Shown: positions 166-60,016 of the stretch, one piece after another
Layout: every line of letters starts with the position of its first letter
Numbering within the stretch: position 1 is the stretch's first letter
DNA from: Octopus sinensis
Taxonomy: Eukaryota
Direction of reading: 5' to 3'
Assembly (NCBI RefSeq): GCF_006345805.1
Contig: NC_043003.1
Span: forward strand, 81,344,001-81,408,000
Length of the DNA: 64,000 bases
Translations under genes and position numbers: made by a program
The notes under the pieces: generated by a model
The model's input: the letters and a program-made list of their open reading frames with translations, nothing else
Database searches by the model: none
What the model was told of the DNA's origin: nothing

Positions 166-304
166 GAATGCATATGTACATATACCAGCGTGTGTCTGTG
201 TGCATGTGAATGTGTATGTGTGTGCGTGTTTCTGAATCTTCGGAAACTAGTCTTCTTAATAAATTGTTGCTAGTATGTATGGTTATCTTTTAATATTTTC
301 TGTA

Positions 305-6174: not shown

Positions 6175-7535
6175 CGTGGCGAGCTGGTAGAACCGTTAGC
6201 ACGCTGGACGAAATGCTTAGCAGTAATAAGTACCAGTAAAAACTAGGGTCAATGTAATCGATCAGTCGCCTCCCATCATATTTGAGGCTTTGTGCCTCCA
6301 GTAGAAAGGAATATTATTATTATGAAAGCAGCGAGCTGGATGAGTGGTTAATACGCTGGACGGAATGCTTAGCGGCATTTCGCCCGTCGCTACGTTCTGA
6401 ATTCAAATTCCACCGAAGACGACTTTGCCTTTCATCCTTTTGTGATCGATAAATTAAGTACGAGTTGAGTGCTGAGATCGATATAATCGACTTACCTCTT
6501 CTCCAAATTTCAGGCCTTGTGTCTATAAAAGAAAGTATTATTATCATTATTATTATTATTATTAGTATGAAGGCGATGAGCTGGCAAAATCGTTAAAACA
6601 CCGGGCGAAATGCTTAGGTAGTATTTCGCTCTTCGATACGTTCGGAGTTAAAATCCCCCCGAGGTCGTCTTTGCCTTTCATCTTTTCGGGTTGATAAAAT
6701 AAGTACCAATTGAACACTGGAGTCGATGTAATCGACTCATCCCCTCTCCAGAATTGCTACCATTGTGGTAAAATTTGAAACCAGCACCACCTACACCATC
6801 ACCACCATCATCATTATAAAGGCAGCGAGATGGCAGAATCGTTAGCACACCAGTCGAAATACTTAGAGGCATTTTGTTTGTTTTTACGTTCTGAGTTCAA
6901 ATTCCGCCGAGTTCGAATTTGCCTATCATCCTTTCGGGTACCAGTTGCACACTGGAGTCAATGTAATCGACATAACCTCCGCCCCGGGGGTTGTACCAAA
7001 ATTCTGAATCATGATTATTATTATTTTAAAGTGAGCTAACTAAATCATTATAGCTTCGGCAAAAAGGATTTGTGGCATTTGTCCCGGCTTTTAACGTTCT
7101 CCACTTAAATCCAGTCGAAGTCAGCTTGCCTTCTTCTTTCCAGGGCCGATGAAATAAAGTACCAGTCAAGTACTTGAATCGATGGTAACGACTACCATAC
7201 TCCTCAAAATTTCTGGCCTAAATTAGGAACAGTAGTATTAGTCGTAATATCATTATTACTAGCAAACGCGTTGAGGTACCAGTCTAGGTGATAAGCTGGC
7301 AGAATCGTGAGAAAAGCAGGAAAAATGTTATTGTTTGTGGTACTTCTTCCGACTCTTTATGTTCTGAGTTCACATTTTATCTTTCATCCGTCTGGGACAC
7401 ATACAAAGAAGAATACAGTCAAATATGTCATCTTTATTCTATGCTAGAACTCATCATGATTTTTAGTGTAACTGAATAGCATCAACTAATCCTCTACCCT
7501 CAAAATTGCTGTCCTTGTGCAAATAGTAGAAATTA
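6175..7535 (+). mobile_element. Head-to-tail cluster of about 6 diverged SINE family B copies, several separated by (TTA)n or (CAT)n
   Basis: Repeated GAGCTGG(C/T)AGAA heads near 6180, 6332, 6577, 6826, 7032, 7293 and repeated GCCTTTCATC...GATAAA cores. Confidence 0.85.
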
Positions 7536-11538: not shown

Positions 11539-12060
11539 TACTGAACAACAAAAGAAACGTTGCGTTGTAAAAGATTGTTTCACACACAATATTGAAATTA
11601 TATGGATTTTTATCACATTTCTACATAACTTGACATCAACATGATGTCACTGATCCACAATACCACTCTCTTTTGAAAGCACAAGGATTGCATGTAGGGT
11701 TCGAACTCGCTCACTTTTCGTGAACAGAGTAATGCTCGCGAACGCATCTTTATGAAGAGCATGATGTACGTGCACAACGTTAACTCATTGGGCATGAAAC
11801 GGCACACAAATTTACCAGCCTGTCATTTGCTTTCCGAACGCAGCAAGCATGCCAAGGCTGACACTAAATCAGAGTGAGTAAGCCATCGGATGTCTCAATG
11901 CTAGTCAAAGCCCATGGTTCATAGCTAATGACTTGAATAGCAGGATTCGGACAACTGAGCGGCTGAGGGAAAAAGACAATGCCACAAACAGCACAGATGA
12001 TCATCCACGCAGAGGCCGACTAGGGTTACAACAGCACGTCAAGATCGCCACCTGCACCAC
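11539..12060 (+). mobile_element. Tc1-type DNA transposon 5' end (TIR plus decayed transposase N-terminal HTH)
   Basis: TA + TACTGAACAACAAAAGAAACG TIR-like start; from ATG 11849: MPRLTLNQSE*AIGCLNASQSPWFIANDLNSRIRTTERLREKDNATNSTDDHPRRGR/RVTTARQDRHL, matching the Tc1 GRPR..TT.RQDR motif. Confidence 0.8.
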
Positions 12061-12129
12061 AGCTAACGTTTCTGCCAGTTCACCACCTTACATCGTCTTA
12101 TAATAATTCTGCTTCTCATTACGTTACTT

Positions 12130-12427
12130 GTGGAGGCGCAATGGCCCAGTGGTTAGGGCAGCGGACTCGCGGTCGTAGGATCGCGGTTTCGATTCCTAAA
12201 CCGGGCGTTGTGAGTGTTTATTGAGCGAAAACACCTAAAAAGTTCCACGAGGCTCCAGCAGGGGGTGGTGATCCCTGCTGTACTCTTTCACTACACTTTC
12301 TCTCACTCTTTCTTCTGTTGGCCTGCTCGCTTAGCCAGCGGGGTGGCGTCATTCGAAGGCTAAAACAATGCGAACGCATTGTGACCAGCGATGTGTAACA
12401 ACATCTGATGGTTTGGTCGGTCACGTG
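12130..12427 (+). mobile_element. tRNA-derived SINE family D, tail type 1, full length with 12-bp TSD
   Basis: A-box TGGCCCAGTGG, B-box GGTTTCGATTCC; TSD ATTACGTTACTT at 12118-12129 and 12428-12439. Confidence 0.9.
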
Positions 12428-14673: not shown

Positions 14674-14846
14674 GAGTCCGCTGCCCTAACCACTGGGCCA
14701 TTGCGCCTCCACAAGTAACGTAATGAGAAGCAGAATTATTATAAGACGATGTAAGGTGGTGAACTGGCAGAAACGTTAGCTGTGGTGCAGGTGGCGATCT
14801 TGACGTGCTGTTGTAACCCTAGTCGGCCTCTGCGTGGATGATCATC
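14674..14846 (-). repeat. Exact 173-bp inverted duplicate of 11996-12168
   Basis: Base-by-base reverse-complement identity by eye. Confidence 0.92.
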
Positions 14847-16148: not shown

Positions 16149-16150
<2 letters not shown>

Positions 16151-16229
<79 letters not shown>

Positions 16230-16230: not shown

Positions 16231-16413
16231 TAAAAGGCTTAGTAAAATAAATTACTTTGCCGCATACTGAACTCATTAGAAATAGCAGCTAAAAAAACTT
16301 TTTTTAAAACTATTTCTAATACTTAAAGAAAACCTCTCTCATATAGTGTTTGCTCAATTCAACTCACGCAAATATGGGGGTAGAGACATTAAAAAATCAA
16401 GTGCAAAGGTTTT

Positions 16414-16466
16414 TGAGAACGTACGTTTCAAGATTAGTCAAAGTCGACATTTCTATCATCAGCTCA
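16414..16466 (-). ncRNA. Minimal type-I hammerhead ribozyme motif, copy 1
   Basis: Minus strand tgag-CTGATGA-tagaaatgtcgactttgactaatctt-GAAA-C(gtac)G-TT-ctca. Confidence 0.65.
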
Positions 16467-16971
16467 GAACTCCCTGGTTTGGATTTGAAAACACTGAAAG
16501 TGGGAGCATACCCTTTCGGCTTCCTCTCGCTTCTGAAGATCTGCTCGTAACTAACAGTGCCAACAAACTCAAAAATGCAAGCGAAGAATTTCTGCTCTCC
16601 CCTTTCCACCAGCGTGGGTTAAAATCAGTAAACACTATGCTTTTTTCGGTAAAATCCGCGGCATTATATAGAGAGAGATGAATTATAATTTCAACAATTG
16701 AGGGTAAAATTAATTAATTAATCAATTTCACCAAGTATTCAGTATGCAAAGGGACCATTTAAGGCGAATTCAAATTATTACATTATATAAAAGGGCTTAG
16801 TAAAATAAATTACTTTGCCGCATACTGAACTCATTAGAAATAGCAGCTAAAAAAACTTTTTTAAAACTATTTCTAATACTTAAAGAAAACCTCTCTCATA
16901 TAGTGTTTGCTCAATTCAACTCACGCAAATATGGGGGTAGAGACATTAAAAAATCAAGTGCAAAGGTTATT

Positions 16972-17024
16972 TGAGAACGTACGTTTCAAGATTAGTCAAA
17001 GTCGACATTTCTATCATCAGCTCA
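16972..17024 (-). ncRNA. Minimal type-I hammerhead ribozyme motif, copy 2 (overlaps the fold-back loop)
   Basis: Identical to copy 1. Confidence 0.65.
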
Positions 17025-17569
17025 GAACTCACGACTTTGACTAATCTTGAAACGTACGTTCTCAAATAACCTTTGCACTTGATTTTTTAATGTCTCTACC
17101 CCCATATTTGCGTGAGTTGAATTGAGCAAACACTATATGAGAGAGGTTTTCTTTAAGTATTAGAAATAGTTTTAAAAAAGTTTTTTTAGCTGCTATTTCT
17201 AATGAGTTCAGTATGCGGCAAAGTAATTTATTTTACTAAGCCCTTTTATATAATGTAATAATTTGAATTCGCCTTAAATGGTCCCTTTGCATACTGAATA
17301 CTTGGTGAAATTGATTAATTAATTAATTTTACCCTCAATTGTTGAAATTATAATTCATCTCTCTCTATATAATGCCGCGGATTTTACCGAAAAAAGCATA
17401 GTGTTTACTGATTTTAACCCACGCTGGTGGAAAGGGGAGAGCAGAAATTCTTCGCTTGCATTTTTGAGTTTGTTGGCACTGTTAGTTACGAGCAGATCTT
17501 CAGAAGCGAGAGGAAGCCGAAAGGGTATGCTCCCACTTTCAGTGTTTTCAAATCCAAACCAGGGAGTTC

Positions 17570-17622
17570 TGAGCTGATGATAGAAATGTCGACTTTGACT
17601 AATCTTGAAACGTACGTTCTCA
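17570..17622 (+). ncRNA. Minimal type-I hammerhead ribozyme motif, copy 3
   Basis: CTGATGA 17574-80; GAAA 17607-10; stem III C-G with palindromic GTAC loop; GUU triplet ending 17618; stem I TGAG/CTCA. Confidence 0.65.
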
Positions 17623-17906
17623 AATAACCTTTGCACTTGATTTTTTAATGTCTCTACCCCCATATTTGCGTGAGTTGAATTGAGCAAACACTATATGAGA
17701 GAGGTTTTCTTTAAGTATTAGAAATAGTTTTAAAAAAGTTTTTTTAGCTGCTATTTCTAATGAGTTCAGTATGCGGCAAAGTAATTTATTTTACTAAGCC
17801 CTTTTATATAATGTAATAATTTGAATTCGCCTTAAATGGTCCCTTTGCATACTGAATACTTGGTGAAATTGATTAATTAATTAATTTTACCCTCAATTGT
17901 TGAAAT

Positions 17907-17910
<4 letters not shown>

Positions 17911-17980
<70 letters not shown>
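17911..17980. repeat. (TA)n, right flank of fold-back element
   Basis: Directly visible. Confidence 0.95.
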
Positions 17981-18429: not shown

Positions 18430-18880
18430 TAAAAATTATAAACCTACGAAATTTATGAAGCTACTTACCTTCCTGCTACACCCAAAGCAAAATTCTTTAA
18501 CCAGTAAAAACTGGATTACCTTACAAGCTTCAAATATAGAAGAAGCAATGCAATTTCTATGGACTACCTAAAATACATAACAAAATAATTAAGGAAACAA
18601 TGTAATGGAGCGCAAACCAATATAGTGATTATCCCACCACCATTCGATCTAAACCTGTGACCCATTGTTGCAGGTCCGTCGTGTGAAATGTGTTGCTTAA
18701 ATAATTTCCTAGACATTCTACTAAAGACTTCCTCAAGCACATAAAGAGCTTCATGCGTAATGATTTGGATACCATCAACAATCTACCAAACACTATAAAA
18801 TAAAACAACTATATTGTTACATTCGATGTCATGAAACTATAATATATATTGTCACATGTTCATGTCTGCAAGTAAGATCG
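18430..18880 (+). mobile_element. Penelope-like element reverse transcriptase fragment (decayed)
   Basis: LDYLTSF...FYGLPKIHN (from 18555)...DLNL*PIVAGPSCE...LNNFLDILLK/LKHIKSFMRNDLD...LP...IVTFDV matches the PLE RT FYGLPKIHK / LRPIV / FDV motifs. Confidence 0.85.
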
Positions 18881-29659: not shown

Positions 29660-30085
29660 ACAAGGTTGCGAGCTAGCAGAGACGTTAAGGACGCTGGCCG
29701 AAATGCTTAGCGACATTTCGTCCGTTTCTACGTTCTGAGTTCAAATTCCACCGAGGTCGACTTTGTCTTTCGTCTTTTCGGGGTCGATGGAATGAATATC
29801 GTTGAGTAATGGGCTCCATATGATAACTTATTCCCTTCCCTGAACTTGCTGGCCTTGTGCCAAAATTTGAAATCAATATTAGAAGGAGCACAAGAGCGGC
29901 GAGATGGAGCAGGTATTTCGTCCGTCTTTACGTTTGAAGTCAAATTCCACCAGCATTGACATCACCTTTCATCTTTTCGGAAATCGATAGAATAAGTACT
30001 TTTGAGCCCCGGGACAATGTAATTGCCTTACTCCTTCCCCGAAATTGCTGGCCTTGTGCCAAAATGTGAAGCCAATATTAGAAAG
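29660..30085 (+). mobile_element. Tandem SINE family B copies
   Basis: Repeated GCTGGCCTTGTGCCAAAAT ends; GTCGACTTTGTCTTTCGTCTTTTCGGGGTCGAT core. Confidence 0.8.
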
Positions 30086-48934: not shown

Positions 48935-49352
48935 GTGAGCTGGCAGAATCCGTAATATGCCAGAGAAAAATGCAGAGCGGCAGTTTTTTTTTTTAACCTT
49001 CTTTTTAGGATTTATATTCTGTGTTCAAATTTCGCCCTATTCGACTTAGCCTTTTATCCTTTTACGGTCGATTGAATATAATGGCCGTTGCGGTTTGGAG
49101 TCATTGTAATCGACTAATCTCTCCACCCACGAGCTGGCAGAAACGTTAGCACGCCGGGCGAAATGCGTAGCCGTATTTCGTCTGTCGTTACGTTGTGAGT
49201 TCAAATTCCGCCGAGGTCGACTTTGCCTTTCATCCTTTCGGGGTCTATAAATAAAGTACCAGTTACGCACTGGCGTTGATGTAATCGACTTAATCCCTTT
49301 GTCTGTCCTTGTTTGTCCCCTCTATGTTTAGCCCCTTGTGGGCAATAAAAAA
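48935..49352 (+). mobile_element. Old SINE family B copy followed by a young copy (49130-49352)
   Basis: GAGCTGGCAGAAACGTTAGCACGCCGGGCGAAATG...TTTAGCCCCTTGTGGG. Confidence 0.85.
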
Positions 49353-52240
49353 AATATCCCTTCACCCACACCCCTTCAAGTGCTCTACCTAATGTACGAA
49401 GAACTGCTTGAATTTATACTTCCTGTTTTTTTCAAGTCAGTCTCAATTTAGTCAGATCTGGAAACTATTTAATGACAATGCAAACGGTTACTTGCTCAAG
49501 CTTTCCAGGCTTGAAGTAAATTCCCTGGGTGATATTAGAAAAAAAAAATGCTTCCATCTTTTTTTTTTCCTTTTGTAAAAATATTAAATAAATATCTGGG
49601 GTTTTTTTTCAAGTATATTGTAATGCTTCGGAAAACGGGCCTACATGTTTGCAACTAGTCGAACTCCGTTAAATGCCCCCAAAGGGTATTAAGCCGGGTA
49701 ATGTTCACTCTGAATGACATACTCACAGTTTCCATCTGCTAAGTACTCACAAGGTTTTCATTAACTAAACATATAGTGAGATATGACGACAGTTTCCTAC
49801 GATGTGGTACTGTGGGATGGAACCAAAAATTACTTAGTTTCAAAGGGCACCTCTTAACCACACAATCATACTTGCGCTTCTTTTTCTATCTTTAAAAATA
49901 AGAAACTTCTGGATCTTGTCAAATAAATCCAGCTTCAAGAATCCACGGACTTTGAAGGAAATAGTTTTGTGCTCCGGTCACATTATGCTCTATTCATTTT
50001 TCTAAAATCGAAGAATCGAAGTGAGCTTTGATATCATTGTCAAATCATTGTGACATGAAAGACAAAGTTACTCACGATTACCTTTGAGGTTGACATAAAG
50101 ATGTTTATTTTACTTGGTTTCTATAAATTTAGTCAGAAGGCAAAACCACTTTAAACATAATAGTACATTTTGAAGTCGTATACGCTGTCTACATCAACTT
50201 TAGTTTCAAGACAATGTCTGAAGTTTATTTGTAGTGCAAGTTAAAGAAGGCAATAAAAATATTAAAATTCAAAGAATTCATTTATTTTTTCTTCTTCTTC
50301 AAGATTGTCATCGAGCCAAGTATCCTATAGAGTGCTATTGTTATAAATTGTTGCTTTTCACGATGTAACTTACGAAGTGCGGCTGATAGAAATACGCTCT
50401 CTCTCTTTCCAATGCTGTCGTTTTAAAAAGAAAGGATTATTTTGAGGCCAATACTTAATTTGACTTGTAATGAAAAAATTCAAAAAGCATCAATAAACTT
50501 GACACAAATTGTTAGGGAGTCAATCATAATATCATTGTGACAATTCACAATAAACACGAACCTTTATCTTAAATGTTAGCAGAGCATACAACGTTGGTAT
50601 TTCCAACAATATACTCATCTCGTTCACTCTCGAAGCAAACTTTAGATGCTTTTCTTTTCATTATCAATAAATAAATAAATTATATGAAATATTGAAAATA
50701 AGCAAAATTATATATTAAGATATGAAAATTTTTACATGTTTTATAAACAGGAATAAAATCAGCTTTCTTGCAGCAATTTTTGATGTTTTTATGTATTTGT
50801 AGTTTTAATTTCCTTTATATATATATATTTTTTTTTGTATCAAGCTGTGAAAACATGTGTTCAAACAAAACACAGCAGGAAGAAAGGAAACTGAACGAGA
50901 AATGCATTTCTTAAATTTTCTCCGCTGTTTACTAATTTATTCTTTGCTTTCGATATAGTTTCTGCTATTTAATCATAAAATGACAGGTACGAATTGTTTG
51001 AAGCTGAAGTATTGAACATATACGTCAAACACTTACCCAATATATTTTGATATAGGACAGTAAACACAATTATATAATGTGGCTATGCATATAGTATGCA
51101 TGTTGTGTGTGTAAGTGCGTTCATATGTCTATGTATAATGCATGTATATTTATACAGATATACATGCTTATATATATATATATATGTGTGTGTGTATACA
51201 TTTATATACATGTATGTATATACATATTCACATAGATGTACACATATATGTGGGCGTGTAGTAATAACCAAAAATAAATCTTGTATAGAATTTACAAATA
51301 TTATAATGCCCCGCTACGCGCTTTTCTGCAAGCTCCATGTTTCTTAAGTTCATAGTCCGTATTCCTAGGATGAATACAGTGCAGTCCATAGTATTCATGG
51401 GCATCGGGTAGATCATGTTCATGCATTCATTTCTTCGGCCGAAATAGCATCAATAAATGTTTAGCTGAAGACTGTTTACCAATTTCGACCATTTGTTTAC
51501 CAGTTTTGCTCGGGGTATGTAGGCATTTCTGCGTGTGTATATTTGGTGGGAAGGTGATAGAAAGAAAGGAAGGAATGCTAGTTATAATGAGGTGGAGGTG
51601 TGTATGATGATGTTGGACTTATTTTGCTATTTGAGTATGCAGATGTCAGGATGGGTAGCATGGTTCCTTTGTTTGATCTTATTCCCAGCAGGCCCCCATC
51701 TCAATGAATACAAAGTAGTCGAATCAGTAAATATACCCATTACAGCAACCCAGTTGTTGTTCATTATCTGAGTTGACATATGTTACTTTGTTAAAATGAC
51801 CTTTTAATTCCTTTTGTTGGTATAATGGTATAGCATATATCATATGAAAATTGTGGGTTTTTTTTATTATTTAGTTGCTTGTGCTCTTCCCTTGTTCTGT
51901 TATATGTTAAAGGTGGTTAGTGTTTTTCTACTTCAAAATGTGTTTGCTTTTTTTTTTTTTTTGGCTTCGAATTCTAGGAACGCTGCCTTGTTTTTATGCT
52001 TACATGATATGATAACTTTGAAATGTCTATTAATTATGTTTTCTCTTGATGTGATGATCTCCCGCGTTTTGTCTTGACATAAGCTGTACACCTACGATGT
52101 TCTGCTGTAAGGTTGGATATTGATGAAGAGTGCGAATGTAAACAAAAATGATTGGGATAATTTCACTATGACTAGAATTTTCACTATGACTCCCTTCGTG
52201 GCAAACGGAATCTATAAATACTCAACTGCATTTATTATAA

Positions 52241-56592: not shown

Positions 56593-57589
56593 ATAATGTA
56601 GAAGTAAGAATCAAATTTAGGTAAGTCAAAATCACATGGACAGTAATCCCTTGCCATATCGCAGTTCACCTATCGCACACTCAGTACATCGCGGTTCCCC
56701 TATCGCACATTCAATGCATCGCGGATTTGTCTGGCTAATGTATGTAAATTTATATCGCGGACTCCTCAGTATATTCAGATTTCTGCGGCCGATAGGTATT
56801 TATATTTTCTTTAGAATTTAATTATTTCTGTGGGAAGTTTTGGAACGTAACACCTGCGATGGACGAGAGATTGCTGTACATTTATATTAAACAAGATGCA
56901 TGAATTTCTCCAAAAGTATATTCAATACAACAAACATATTAAAAGTATATAGATATATAAAAATATATACAGTAATCAATACATGAAAAATATACATATA
57001 AAAATATATAAATAGATAGATATATGTATTAAAAATCTATTGAAAAAATAAATAATTATACAAGCCGCCTTGCAGATTATAAAACGAAGTCACAAAAAGA
57101 GTTAAGAGTCTATAAGATAAAAAGTTCGATTGTAACTAATCTAGTCAATAATCCTACGGCCATATCTGGGGGTCCGGTTGTGCAGTCATAAAAGATATGT
57201 TTACATCCATTTTTGGACACCATCTCCTTCATCAGGGAAAAAAATTCTAAAAAGGTTCACATGTATTAACTGGATTAGTAATACCCAATCTTTTTATCGT
57301 ATAGACTCTTAACTCTTATTATAACTTCGTTTTATAATCTGCAAGTCGACCTATCTATCTAATTTTTTTTTCAATATTTTTTTAATGTATATACCTATAT
57401 ATTTTTATATGTATATTTTTAACGTATTGATTACTCTATATATTTTTATATATGTAAATATTTTTAATACGTTTGATGTACTGAATATACTTTTGGAGAA
57501 ATTCCTGCTTGTTGGATCTAAGCATGAATAAATATAAATGTGTATGTGAATTTTATTTGACTAAATTTTATTCTTACTTCTACGTTATA
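56593..57589. repeat. Old diverged fold-back (arms about 56593-57150 and 57264-57589) with a decayed hammerhead in the spacer
   Basis: For example TTGCAGATTATAAAACGAAG / CTTCGTTTTATAATCTGCAA; GAATTTCTCCAAAAGTATATTCA / TGAATATACTTTTGGAGAAATTC; TAGAAGTAAGAAT / ATTCTTACTTCTA. Confidence 0.85.
56641..56876. mobile_element. Tigger/pogo-type MITE inserted in the left arm of the fold-back
   Basis: TIRs CAGTAATCCCTTGCCATATCGC / GCGATGGACGAGAGATTGCTG followed by TA; absent from the right arm. Confidence 0.8.
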
Positions 57590-59644: not shown

Positions 59645-60016
59645 AGGCGGCGAGCTGGCAGAATCCTTGCACGCCAGACAAAATGCTTATCGGCATTTCG
59701 TCCGTCTTAATATTCTGAGTTTGAATTCCGACGAGTCGACTTACACTTCCATTTGAACTCAGTACGTAACGGCAGACGAAATACCTATTTCTTTACTACC
59801 CACAAGGGGCTAAACACAGAGGGGACAAACAAGGACAGACAAACGGATTAAGTCGATTACATCGACCACTGTGCGTAACTGGTACTTAATTTATCGACCC
59901 CGAAAGGATGAAAGGCAAAGTCGACCTTGGCGGAATATGAACTCAGAACGTAACGACAGACGAAATACGGCTACGCATTTCATCCCGCGTGCTAACGTTT
60001 CTGCCAGCTCGCCGCC
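59645..60016. mobile_element. Inverted pair of SINE family B copies (+ truncated 59645-59750; - about 59785-60016)
   Basis: AAGGCGGCGAGCTGGCAGAA ... TTCTGCCAGCTCGCCGCCTT. Confidence 0.85.

What the first reader, a model, noticed from the sequence alone, without database searches (positions are those of the whole stretch)
16231..17910. Candidate cephalopod retrozyme: 558-bp hammerhead-bearing monomer in more-than-unit-length, head-to-head arms inside (TA)n
Seen: a 558-bp unit with no recognisable coding capacity is present as about 1.4 copies (16231-17030) and then about 1.6 inverted copies (17032-17910). The copies are identical apart from three single-base indels in the leftmost one, and (TA)n flanks both ends. 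Each unit has tgag-CTGATGA-[26 nt]-GAAA-C(GTAC)G-TT-ctca. Relative to the hammerhead strand both 3' ends point outward and stop at different TA-containing positions of the unit. Established: Penelope-like elements (PLEs) carry minimal type-I hammerheads with tiny palindromic stem III that act as dimers, often form inverted structures and favour TA-rich targets. Metazoan non-LTR retrozymes are tandem non-coding hammerhead repeats that give circular RNAs. Inference: this is a young non-autonomous, PLE-mobilised element. Circularly permuted, more-than-unit-length arms are what reverse transcription round a 558-nt circular or concatemeric RNA, primed from both sides of a (TA)n break, would produce. 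The monomer is larger than typical animal retrozymes.
Basis: partly seen in the sequence, partly recalled or inferred. Interest (0 to 1): 0.9.

Follow-up and report, generated by a model that had tools for sequence, protein, structure and literature searches.

The report
Hammerhead repeat with two paired ends
This is one copy of a young, abundant non-coding jumping repeat that carries a self-cutting RNA motif, and its mirror-image insertions almost always start their two halves from two different fixed spots on the RNA, which gives a testable clue to how Penelope-type retrotransposons insert.

Summary
The locus is one member of a young, dispersed family: 2,096 exact hammerhead copies, within a superfamily of about 15,000 related motifs. 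It works like a non-autonomous passenger of Penelope-like elements (an animal non-LTR retrozyme), a known kind.

What is new is the insertion rule. 130 of 134 arms end at one of two sites, A (unit 192-209) or B (288-292), running into (TA)n. Two-armed loci pair one A with one B in 48 of 49 scorable cases. A coordinate-only check adds 16 of 17. A/A was never seen. Arm lengths are independent, 5' ends are uniform, and both arms share one haplotype. Each site lies 10-20 nt behind a conserved, covarying hairpin shared by distant families.

Best model: a dimeric Penelope-type enzyme primes both strands of a (TA)n break, one subunit per site, on one RNA, giving an unusually long tail of about 98 nt. 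A circular monomer template is favoured but not shown. Self-cleavage, expression and the partner element were not demonstrated.

The parts
16150..16229 (.). (TA)n target, left part
16231..17030 (-). Left arm, 1.43 units; 3' end at site A, 5' end at unit position 504
17031..17031 (.). Head-to-head junction, one extra base
17032..17910 (+). Right arm, 1.58 units; 5' end at unit position 530, 3' end at site B (unit 292)
17907..17980 (.). (TA)n target, right part
17061..17618 (+). One 558-nt monomer, numbered from the predicted cleavage site (unit position 1 = 17061)
17570..17622 (+). Type I hammerhead motif: 4-bp stem I, CUGAUGA, interrupted stem II, GAAA, palindromic helix III, GUU; predicted cut after 17618
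16972..17024 (-). Hammerhead motif, left arm, first copy (predicted cut 16976|16975)
16414..16466 (-). Hammerhead motif, left arm, second copy (predicted cut 16418|16417); with the first it brackets one full monomer
17159..17203 (+). Module hairpin H1
17207..17298 (+). Module long-range stem P2 (17207-17216 with 17289-17298), enclosing hairpin H2 and the loop that holds site A
17217..17242 (+). Hairpin H2 (GGY...RCC base, compensatory changes), 10-12 nt before the modal site A
17252..17269 (+). Site A (unit 192-209, mode 194): inferred reverse-transcription start 1
17304..17333 (+). Hairpin H3 (GGU...ACC base), 15-19 nt before site B
17348..17352 (+). Site B (unit 288-292): inferred reverse-transcription start 2; the A-to-B stretch is a tail of about 98 nt
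17715..17910 (+). Terminal module copy of the right arm, ending at site B
16681..16879 (-). Internal module copy of the left arm

Best explanation
A non-autonomous, hammerhead-bearing retroelement (retrozyme) mobilised in trans by an endonuclease-bearing Penelope-like element (PLE). Inferred steps: (1) a tandem copy is transcribed; (2) a dimeric PLE protein binds a structured module of about 175 nt that lies 100-275 nt downstream of the hammerhead and has two similar hairpins; (3) it nicks both strands of a (TA)n tract; (4) one subunit starts reverse transcription at site A and the other at site B of the same RNA; (5) each copies toward the 5' end for an independent random distance, straight through hammerhead junctions; (6) the two cDNA ends are joined with 0-7 nt of overlap or a short filler, giving head-to-head arms with the tail on one side only. 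If one arm aborts, a single-armed copy with TA on both sides results. The template passes through a one-unit bottleneck at each round, most simply a circular monomer made by dimeric hammerhead cleavage and ligation. Shown here: anatomy, A+B pairing, arm independence, shared haplotypes, structure conservation. Inferred: the protein, its dimer, cleavage, circularity. The confidence value refers to steps 1-6; circularity alone is about 0.5.
For: 130 of 134 arms end at A (64) or B (66), and 129 of those 130 run into (TA)4 or more. Of 78 loci, 52 are multi-armed, all with 3' ends outward and none tail-to-tail. A+B pairing holds in 27 of 27 best-hit loci and 22 of 25 position-ordered loci (1 B/B, 2 unscorable). 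That is 48 of 49 after dropping one duplicate, p=9e-14, while single-armed loci split 13 A and 13 B. A coordinate-only test gave 20 A/B, 1 B/B and 0 A/A of 21; 4 of these overlap the earlier set. The A arm is longer in 21 and the B arm in 24 of 45 loci, with uncorrelated lengths. 5' ends are uniform around the unit (KS p=0.29) and 205 of 209 hammerhead junctions are intact. Opposite arms differ no more than units within an arm (0.0106 vs 0.0109; between loci 0.053). Lineage markers are fixed in 376 of 407 locus-marker cases, with 47 haplotypes among 75 loci. The module folds at z=-5.8; 96.4% of cells pair, 5 pairs change on both sides, and slid controls pair at most 51%. It is depleted of lineage markers (7/132 vs 47/330, p=0.006). 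Hammerhead stem I, the stem II base and the helix III palindrome change together across families. Helix III forms only as a duplex (0.0 vs -11.6 kcal/mol). Published: a PLE protein extends both target strands, starts at two internal RNA sites whose spacer is the tail, and is predicted to be a dimer (PMC11167929).
Against: No autonomous element carrying the unit or the module at its own end was found among 44 GIY-YIG loci, 5 further loci and 18 module loci. The only physical link is one locus, L212, where a related unit follows PLE-like N-terminal coding sequence. Two B/B loci exist (L149; C1:154881562). 31 marker cases and 45 partial variants are mixed within loci, some nested along long arms (L044, L061), which one pass round a single circle does not produce. 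The hammerhead is atypical: U.U where G10.1-C11.1 is usual (PMC4209133), a GUU cut site (weaker than GUC, recalled), no Rfam match, and it is not the minimum-energy fold (z=0.65). In vitro, a PLE used uncleaved RNA and showed no strand difference in start site, and only 1 of 9 frog retrozyme dimers cleaved.
Confidence: 0.75

Rival explanations
1. The same two-site, two-strand priming by a PLE, but the template is a linear, uncleaved multimeric transcript of a donor array. Long arms are renewed by DNA-level tandem expansion, and the hammerhead is only weakly active or acts at another step.
For: Uncleaved RNA was the dominant substrate for a PLE in vitro. Nested private variants in long arms suggest DNA-level duplication. 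The hammerhead core is atypical. A+B pairing does not by itself require a circle.
Against: 47 haplotypes among 75 loci, each nearly homogeneous across both arms, need repeated one-unit bottlenecks. No inherited pattern of unit-specific variants between loci, and no private variant mirrored at the same unit index of both arms, was seen on inspection. Hammerhead stems are kept with compensatory change across families.
Confidence: 0.35
2. These are only truncated terminal repeats (pLTRs) of a coding PLE that I did not find, not a self-propagating non-coding family.
For: The anatomy is that of PLE ends. The partner search was partial: 150 of 5,029 GIY-YIG candidates were scored. L212 joins a related unit to PLE-like coding sequence.
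Against: In the 78 loci of the family the sequence upstream of a unit is another unit, an inverted arm or flank, up to 10 units in a row. 40 of 65 position-ordered arms exceed one unit. No RT or endonuclease match lies upstream of the module in 18 further loci.
Confidence: 0.1
3. The inverted arm is made by fold-back (self-priming) on the first cDNA, or by L1-type twin priming, rather than by a second independent start.
For: Self-priming was proposed for head-to-head PLE structures (PMC3846280). Junctions show short overlaps.
Against: Fold-back needs one arm type to be always the shorter; A is longer in 21 and B in 24 of 45 loci. Twin priming needs one 5' end near the partner's start; this was seen in 9 of 98 cases against 7.2 expected. 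A-only and B-only loci are equally common.
Confidence: 0.05
4. A satellite spread by DNA-level mechanisms, or an assembly artefact.
For: Tandem units, assembly noise (210 singleton variants in set 1), AT-rich flanks.
Against: Fixed 3' ends with random 5' ends, a strand-specific structure with G.U and compensatory pairs, and the family present in contigs of four independent public runs.
Confidence: 0.02

Closest known systems
Animal non-LTR retrozymes (PMC7229834, passages and Discussion read; bioRxiv 10.64898/2026.07.22.740005, parts 1-3 of 5 read, through the Discussion)
   Same: Non-coding tandem units, one type I hammerhead per unit, size within the published range, co-occurrence with PLEs, proposed PLE mobilisation and circular template.
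   Different: Dispersed, two-armed inverted insertions with fixed ends in (TA)n. The word 'inverted' does not occur in PMC7229834 and only in a reference of the preprint. The hammerhead is of the PLE type with a palindromic helix III, not the canonical type. Circular RNA is not shown here.
Insertion architecture of endonuclease-bearing PLEs: partial tandem, inverted 5'-truncated copy, 30-40 bp tail (PMC8557442 and PMC3846280, passages read)
   Same: Head-to-head inversion, random 5' truncation, tail at one end only, microsatellite targets.
   Different: No ORF; the tail is about 98 nt; arms reach 10 units. The one-end rule, stated there as 'often' or 'optionally', is here 64 of 66 scorable loci.
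Poseidon element PAc of Anolis, in vitro (PMC11167929, parts 1-2 of 4 and passages read; three supplementary files searched, no hits)
   Same: Two internal start sites downstream of a hammerhead, AT-rich targets, both strands extended, predicted dimer.
   Different: PAc sites lie in the ORF start, 30-40 nt apart, in an AC-rich stem-loop. The coupling of the two sites within one event was not reported in the text I read. Here the sites are AU-rich and could pair with the (TA)n primer.
Minimal and small-palindrome hammerheads of PLE pLTRs (PMC4209133, parts 1-2 of 4 read)
   Same: Palindromic helix III implying dimer action, short stem I, long stem II, an extra base after A9; that paper already proposed circles as templates for more-than-unit copying.
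   Different: This family lacks the G10.1-C11.1 pair, although some sister families keep it.
MRC1 and other non-autonomous Chlamys PLEs (PMC8557442 and PMC9940879, passages read)
   Same: Non-autonomous PLE passengers with multicopy head-to-tail insertions.
   Different: Green-algal; that clade lacks canonical hammerheads; they share 3' sequence with a known partner.

Membership tests
Animal non-LTR retrozyme | Tandem units each with a type I hammerhead motif | tested here: met
   (205 of 209 junctions intact)
Animal non-LTR retrozyme | No protein coding | tested here: met
   The longest stop-to-stop frame is 131 aa on the opposite strand, with no Pfam family at cut-off
Animal non-LTR retrozyme | Monomer within the known size range | tested here: met
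   558 nt against 51-972 bp and 150 to >1000 nt
Animal non-LTR retrozyme | Canonical hammerhead with usual helix sizes and loop contacts | tested here: inconclusive
   Core and stems covary, but the motif is of the PLE type, has U.U at 10.1/11.1 and no Rfam match
Animal non-LTR retrozyme | Self-cleavage of the transcript | not testable with these tools
   Needs an in vitro assay
Animal non-LTR retrozyme | Circular RNA accumulates in tissue | not testable with these tools
   Only contigs were available; they cannot show ends, strand or circularity
Autonomous PLE | ORF with RT and GIY-YIG endonuclease | tested here: not met
   No ORF within the arms of 78 loci; the PLE fragments nearby that were inspected are separate insertions
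Non-autonomous PLE passenger | Inverted, head-to-head, 5'-truncated arrangement | tested here: met
   52 of 78 loci, none tail-to-tail; 5' ends uniform
Non-autonomous PLE passenger | Tail present at one end only | tested here: met
   48 of 49 and 16 of 17 further loci; about 98 nt rather than 30-40
Non-autonomous PLE passenger | AT-rich or microsatellite target | tested here: met
   129 of 130 3' ends and 24 of 26 single-arm 5' flanks
Non-autonomous PLE passenger | Shared terminal sequence with a coding PLE in the same genome | tested here: inconclusive
   Not found in a partial search; one suggestive locus, L212
Non-autonomous PLE passenger | Intact PLE frames present in the genome | tested here: met
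   781-aa and 775-aa RT+GIY-YIG frames and a 1,120-aa frame with PLE-type look-alikes

The most novel reading that the evidence does not exclude
Each insertion is a record of double-barrelled rolling-circle reverse transcription. One PLE dimer holds one 558-nt ribozyme-made RNA circle by two matching hairpins, and both active sites run round the same circle from sites A and B, each primed by one strand of a cut (TA)n tract. The module would be a portable loading signal shared by a whole superfamily of ribozyme circles, between which the enzyme can jump in mid-synthesis (L125).
Probability: 0.35. Interest if true: 0.85.

Novelty: new variant of a known kind. Interest (0 to 1): 0.62.

Why it matters
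How PLEs make partial tandems, inverted repeats and a one-sided tail is stated as unresolved (PMC8557442), and retrozyme mobilisation by PLEs rests on co-occurrence and phylogeny. This family gives thousands of young events with a short non-coding template, a near-strict rule that the two arms start at two different sites, and a defined, covarying RNA structure beside each site. That turns 'dimer, one RNA, two starts' and 'circle or linear multimer' into direct experiments. It also marks a candidate minimal RNA signal for two-strand insertion at (TA)n.

Tried and rejected
Rfam scans of the locus and of seven sister loci gave no hammerhead family, only hairpin and microsatellite noise. The minimum-energy fold of the motif alone does not give the hammerhead. 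Partner search: the 781-aa family has a different, U3-A8-type motif and no similarity to the unit. The 775-aa family has its own hammerhead and 3' end. The N-rich family reached through L212 has neither the unit nor the module in the stretches fetched. The apparent links L084 and L091 are separate insertions into TA tracts; the model hit in L110 lies about 2.5 kb outside that element's frame. Sequencing runs: no RNA holder listed; contigs of four runs, two of them guessed to be RNA, cover the unit but cannot show expression. Run-off at the cleavage site, as a linear cleaved monomer would give, was not seen: 5' ends are uniform, the four ends listed at position 1 run on past it or are rearranged, and one locus outside the sets, L113, does stop there. 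Fold-back and L1-type twin priming were rejected. The repeat finder output was dominated by microsatellites. Earlier findings held nothing for this sequence. Paper searches listed no paper describing this family or the coupling of the two ends. Subscription journals, Repbase/Dfam entries and the preprint's supplements were not visible, so the family may already be catalogued as an unnamed repeat.

Full report
Observation. The structure is as described. A 558-bp period runs exactly from 17032 to 17910, and the minus-strand arm 17030-16231 matches the same unit except for three one-base indels in its outer partial copy. (TA)n flanks both sides. Numbering the unit from the predicted cut (position 1 = 17061 or 17619), the left arm runs from 504 to about 190 (1.43 units) and the right arm from 530 to 292 (1.58 units). 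Three hammerhead motifs are complete, two of them in tandem on the left arm. The unit has no coding capacity worth the name.

Family. The unit is young and dispersed: a DNA search gave 1,332 candidates, of which 39 were scored, at 95-100% identity for the listed matches. An exact hammerhead pattern occurs 2,096 times and a complementary pattern for sister subfamilies 1,068 times; two sister units are 86% and 90% identical. A motif from the conserved region occurs 15,327 times. Controls read backwards gave 0 each time. I studied 78 loci. Set 1 is the 39 best-hit clusters including the window. Set 2 is 39 further loci taken in coordinate order from the first 100 pattern hits on contig C1; it is free of selection for identity but requires one exact hammerhead.

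Ends. Of 134 arms, 64 end at site A (window 180-212, mode 194) and 66 at site B (276-293, modes 288 and 292). The other four are one cut by my fetch, two internal rearrangements and one 35-nt stub. 129 of the 130 run into (TA)n, and 24 of 26 single-armed loci have TA at the 5' side too, so the tract is a pre-existing target. All 52 multi-armed loci have 3' ends outward. The key result is pairing: 27 of 27 in set 1 and 22 of 25 in set 2 have one A and one B end; one is B/B (L149, confirmed by eye) and two cannot be scored. Dropping L056, which duplicates L045, this is 48 of 49 (p=9e-14 against 0.5; set 2 alone 22 of 23, p=3e-6). Single-armed loci split 13 A and 13 B, so neither site dominates. 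A test on coordinates alone, using the listed hits of patterns for the commonest A and B ends (819 and 713 genome-wide; 100 and 89 used), gave 20 A/B, 1 B/B and 0 A/A; four of these are set 2 loci. In total 64 of 66. Sister subfamilies follow the rule: by my reading, 10 of 13 two-armed loci are A/B, two pair B with an off-site end, and one is unresolved. Short insertions of distant families show the same arrangement (L205, L209, L214, L216, L218).

Two independent starts on one template. The A arm is longer in 21 and the B arm in 24 of 45 simple loci, with no correlation, which excludes fold-back copying of one arm. 5' ends are uniform around the unit (KS p=0.29) and are not drawn to the partner's start (9 of 98 against 7.2 expected), which excludes L1-type twin priming. 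Copying passes the hammerhead without scars in 205 of 209 junctions, so the template was not a cleaved linear monomer copied by run-off and jumping. Units in opposite arms are as alike as units in one arm (0.0106 against 0.0109; between loci 0.053). Among 75 loci (three compound or duplicate loci left out, three indel-rich stretches masked) 58 lineage markers are fixed in 376 and mixed in 31 locus-marker cases, defining 47 haplotypes. So both arms come from one template lineage, and new variants repeatedly become fixed across whole arrays, as a one-unit bottleneck would cause. Against a pure circle: 45 partly shared variants in set 1, some nested along long arms. These point to later DNA-level duplication, gene conversion or polishing cross-talk, or to a mixed multimeric donor. 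The assembly is noisy, so this test is suggestive only.

RNA structure. Unit 99-273 folds with z=-5.8 into hairpin H1, a long-range stem P2 enclosing hairpin H2 and the loop holding site A, then hairpin H3 followed by site B. Across 12 sequences from the family, its sisters and two distant families, 96.4% of cells pair and 5 of 35 pairs change on both sides; slid controls pair 37-51%. The sequences are related and the structure was derived from one of them, so this is a handful of independent events, not a p-value; the pair-count measure was reached by 110 of 500 shuffles. The module carries fewer lineage markers than the rest of the unit (7/132 against 47/330, p=0.006). H2 and H3 share a GGY...RCC base followed by CU, and the modal ends lie 10-12 nt after H2 and 15-19 nt after H3. 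Two similar hairpins, each followed by a start site, fit one subunit per site; this step is inference.

Hammerhead. Upstream of the module, 114-137 nt away, lie hammerhead cores with differing stems. Stem I varies (UGAG/CUCA, UGUG/CACA, UGUA/UACA, CAUG/CAUG), as do the stem II base (AGA/UCU, GGA/UCC, GAG/CUC, GAA/UUC) and the helix III palindrome (CGUACG, CGGCCG, CGCGCG, CGCG), while the core stays (which required stem I). Without that filter, 381 of 391 cores keep stem I and 385 the palindrome; overlapping loci are counted more than once. Helix III does not fold alone but forms a duplex, as in dimer-acting PLE hammerheads (PMC4209133). Against: no Rfam match, U.U at 10.1/11.1, a GUU cut site, and low activity reported for such motifs. 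Selection on the motif is well supported; cleavage is not shown.

Partner. The genome holds intact PLE frames. None examined carries the unit or the module at its own end, and 18 module loci chosen for diversity have no RT or endonuclease match upstream. The search covered a small part of the candidates. Two loci bear on the enzyme. In L125 one arm passes, without a TA tract, from a sister unit into tandem units of a distant family of about 600 nt that shares the module, as a template switch would give. In L212 a related unit follows PLE-like N-terminal coding sequence, about 63% identical in DNA to the 5' part of an N-rich PLE family. Each is a single locus.

Comparison. Retrozymes as non-autonomous PLE derivatives, circles as templates, inverted arms and a one-sided tail are all in print, and a PLE has been shown to extend both strands and to start at two sites that bound the tail. 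The element works like these. It meets the sequence criteria for a retrozyme and for a PLE passenger, while cleavage, circular RNA and a shared end with a coding element are untested or inconclusive. Not found in the seven paper searches: this family, the near-strict A+B coupling within single events, a tail of about 98 nt, and a twin-hairpin module shared across families. The host taxon was not tested. The window's short interspersed repeats look like octopus SINEs from recall only.

Verdict. A real feature and a new variant of a known kind, with a sharp, testable mechanistic signal. Interest 0.62. The PLE-driven two-site model is about 75% likely, a circular template about 50%, and the full double rolling-circle reading about 35%.

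Noticed in passing
L125:1653-3043 (G000:C1:18218821-18221863): One arm switches from a sister unit into tandem units of a distant family of about 600 nt that has a GUC hammerhead with a long stem II and the same module; a likely template switch between two families.
   Followed up: partly
L212:130-1860 (G000:C1:361200-363400, minus strand): A module-bearing hammerhead unit lies directly downstream of an N/T-rich spacer and a PLE-like N-terminal coding fragment; the upstream partial unit lacks the module.
   Followed up: partly
L230:656-3040 and L231:1064-4423: A PLE-type family with a long asparagine-rich insert near the N-terminus (frames up to 1,120 aa), in tandem with period 3,902 in L230. 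Pfam gave no hit; atlas look-alikes carry HTH_animal, DUF8422 and GIY-YIG.
   Followed up: partly
L099-L105, L112: A young PLE family with 781-aa RT+GIY-YIG frames, an upstream 479-aa frame in two copies, a hammerhead-like motif with the U3-A8 core variant and a tail of about 35 nt, also in (TA)n.
   Followed up: partly
L106:2900-4260 and L111:4634-5340: A second PLE family (775 aa) whose 3' hammerhead also has U bases flanking stem II, like the family studied here.
   Followed up: partly
L077:943-976, L105:544, L106:7520, L186: Further unrelated hammerhead motifs with palindromic helix III; the genome is rich in such families.
   Followed up: no
G000:C2:27922025-27935941 and C1:132517356-132526185: Very long sister-family arrays (16 or more listed hammerheads in one arm, and about 13 plus 3) still bounded in the inverted arrangement.
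   Followed up: no
L045 and L056: Two loci on different contigs with the same junction and nearly the same variants; a segmental duplication or an assembly duplicate.
   Followed up: partly
window 18514-18839: A decayed PLE reverse-transcriptase fragment ending at a short TA run, 600 bp right of the element.
   Followed up: partly
window 11996-12168 and 14674-14846: A 173-nt perfect inverted pair 2.5 kb apart, partly SINE-like; a recent duplication or transposon ends.
   Followed up: no
window 56892-57514: An AT-rich imperfect inverted repeat of about 600 bp, MITE-like.
   Followed up: no
window 6332-6444, 29670-29782, 49130-49353, 59788-60011 and others: Abundant short interspersed repeats of at least two SINE-like families.
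   Followed up: no
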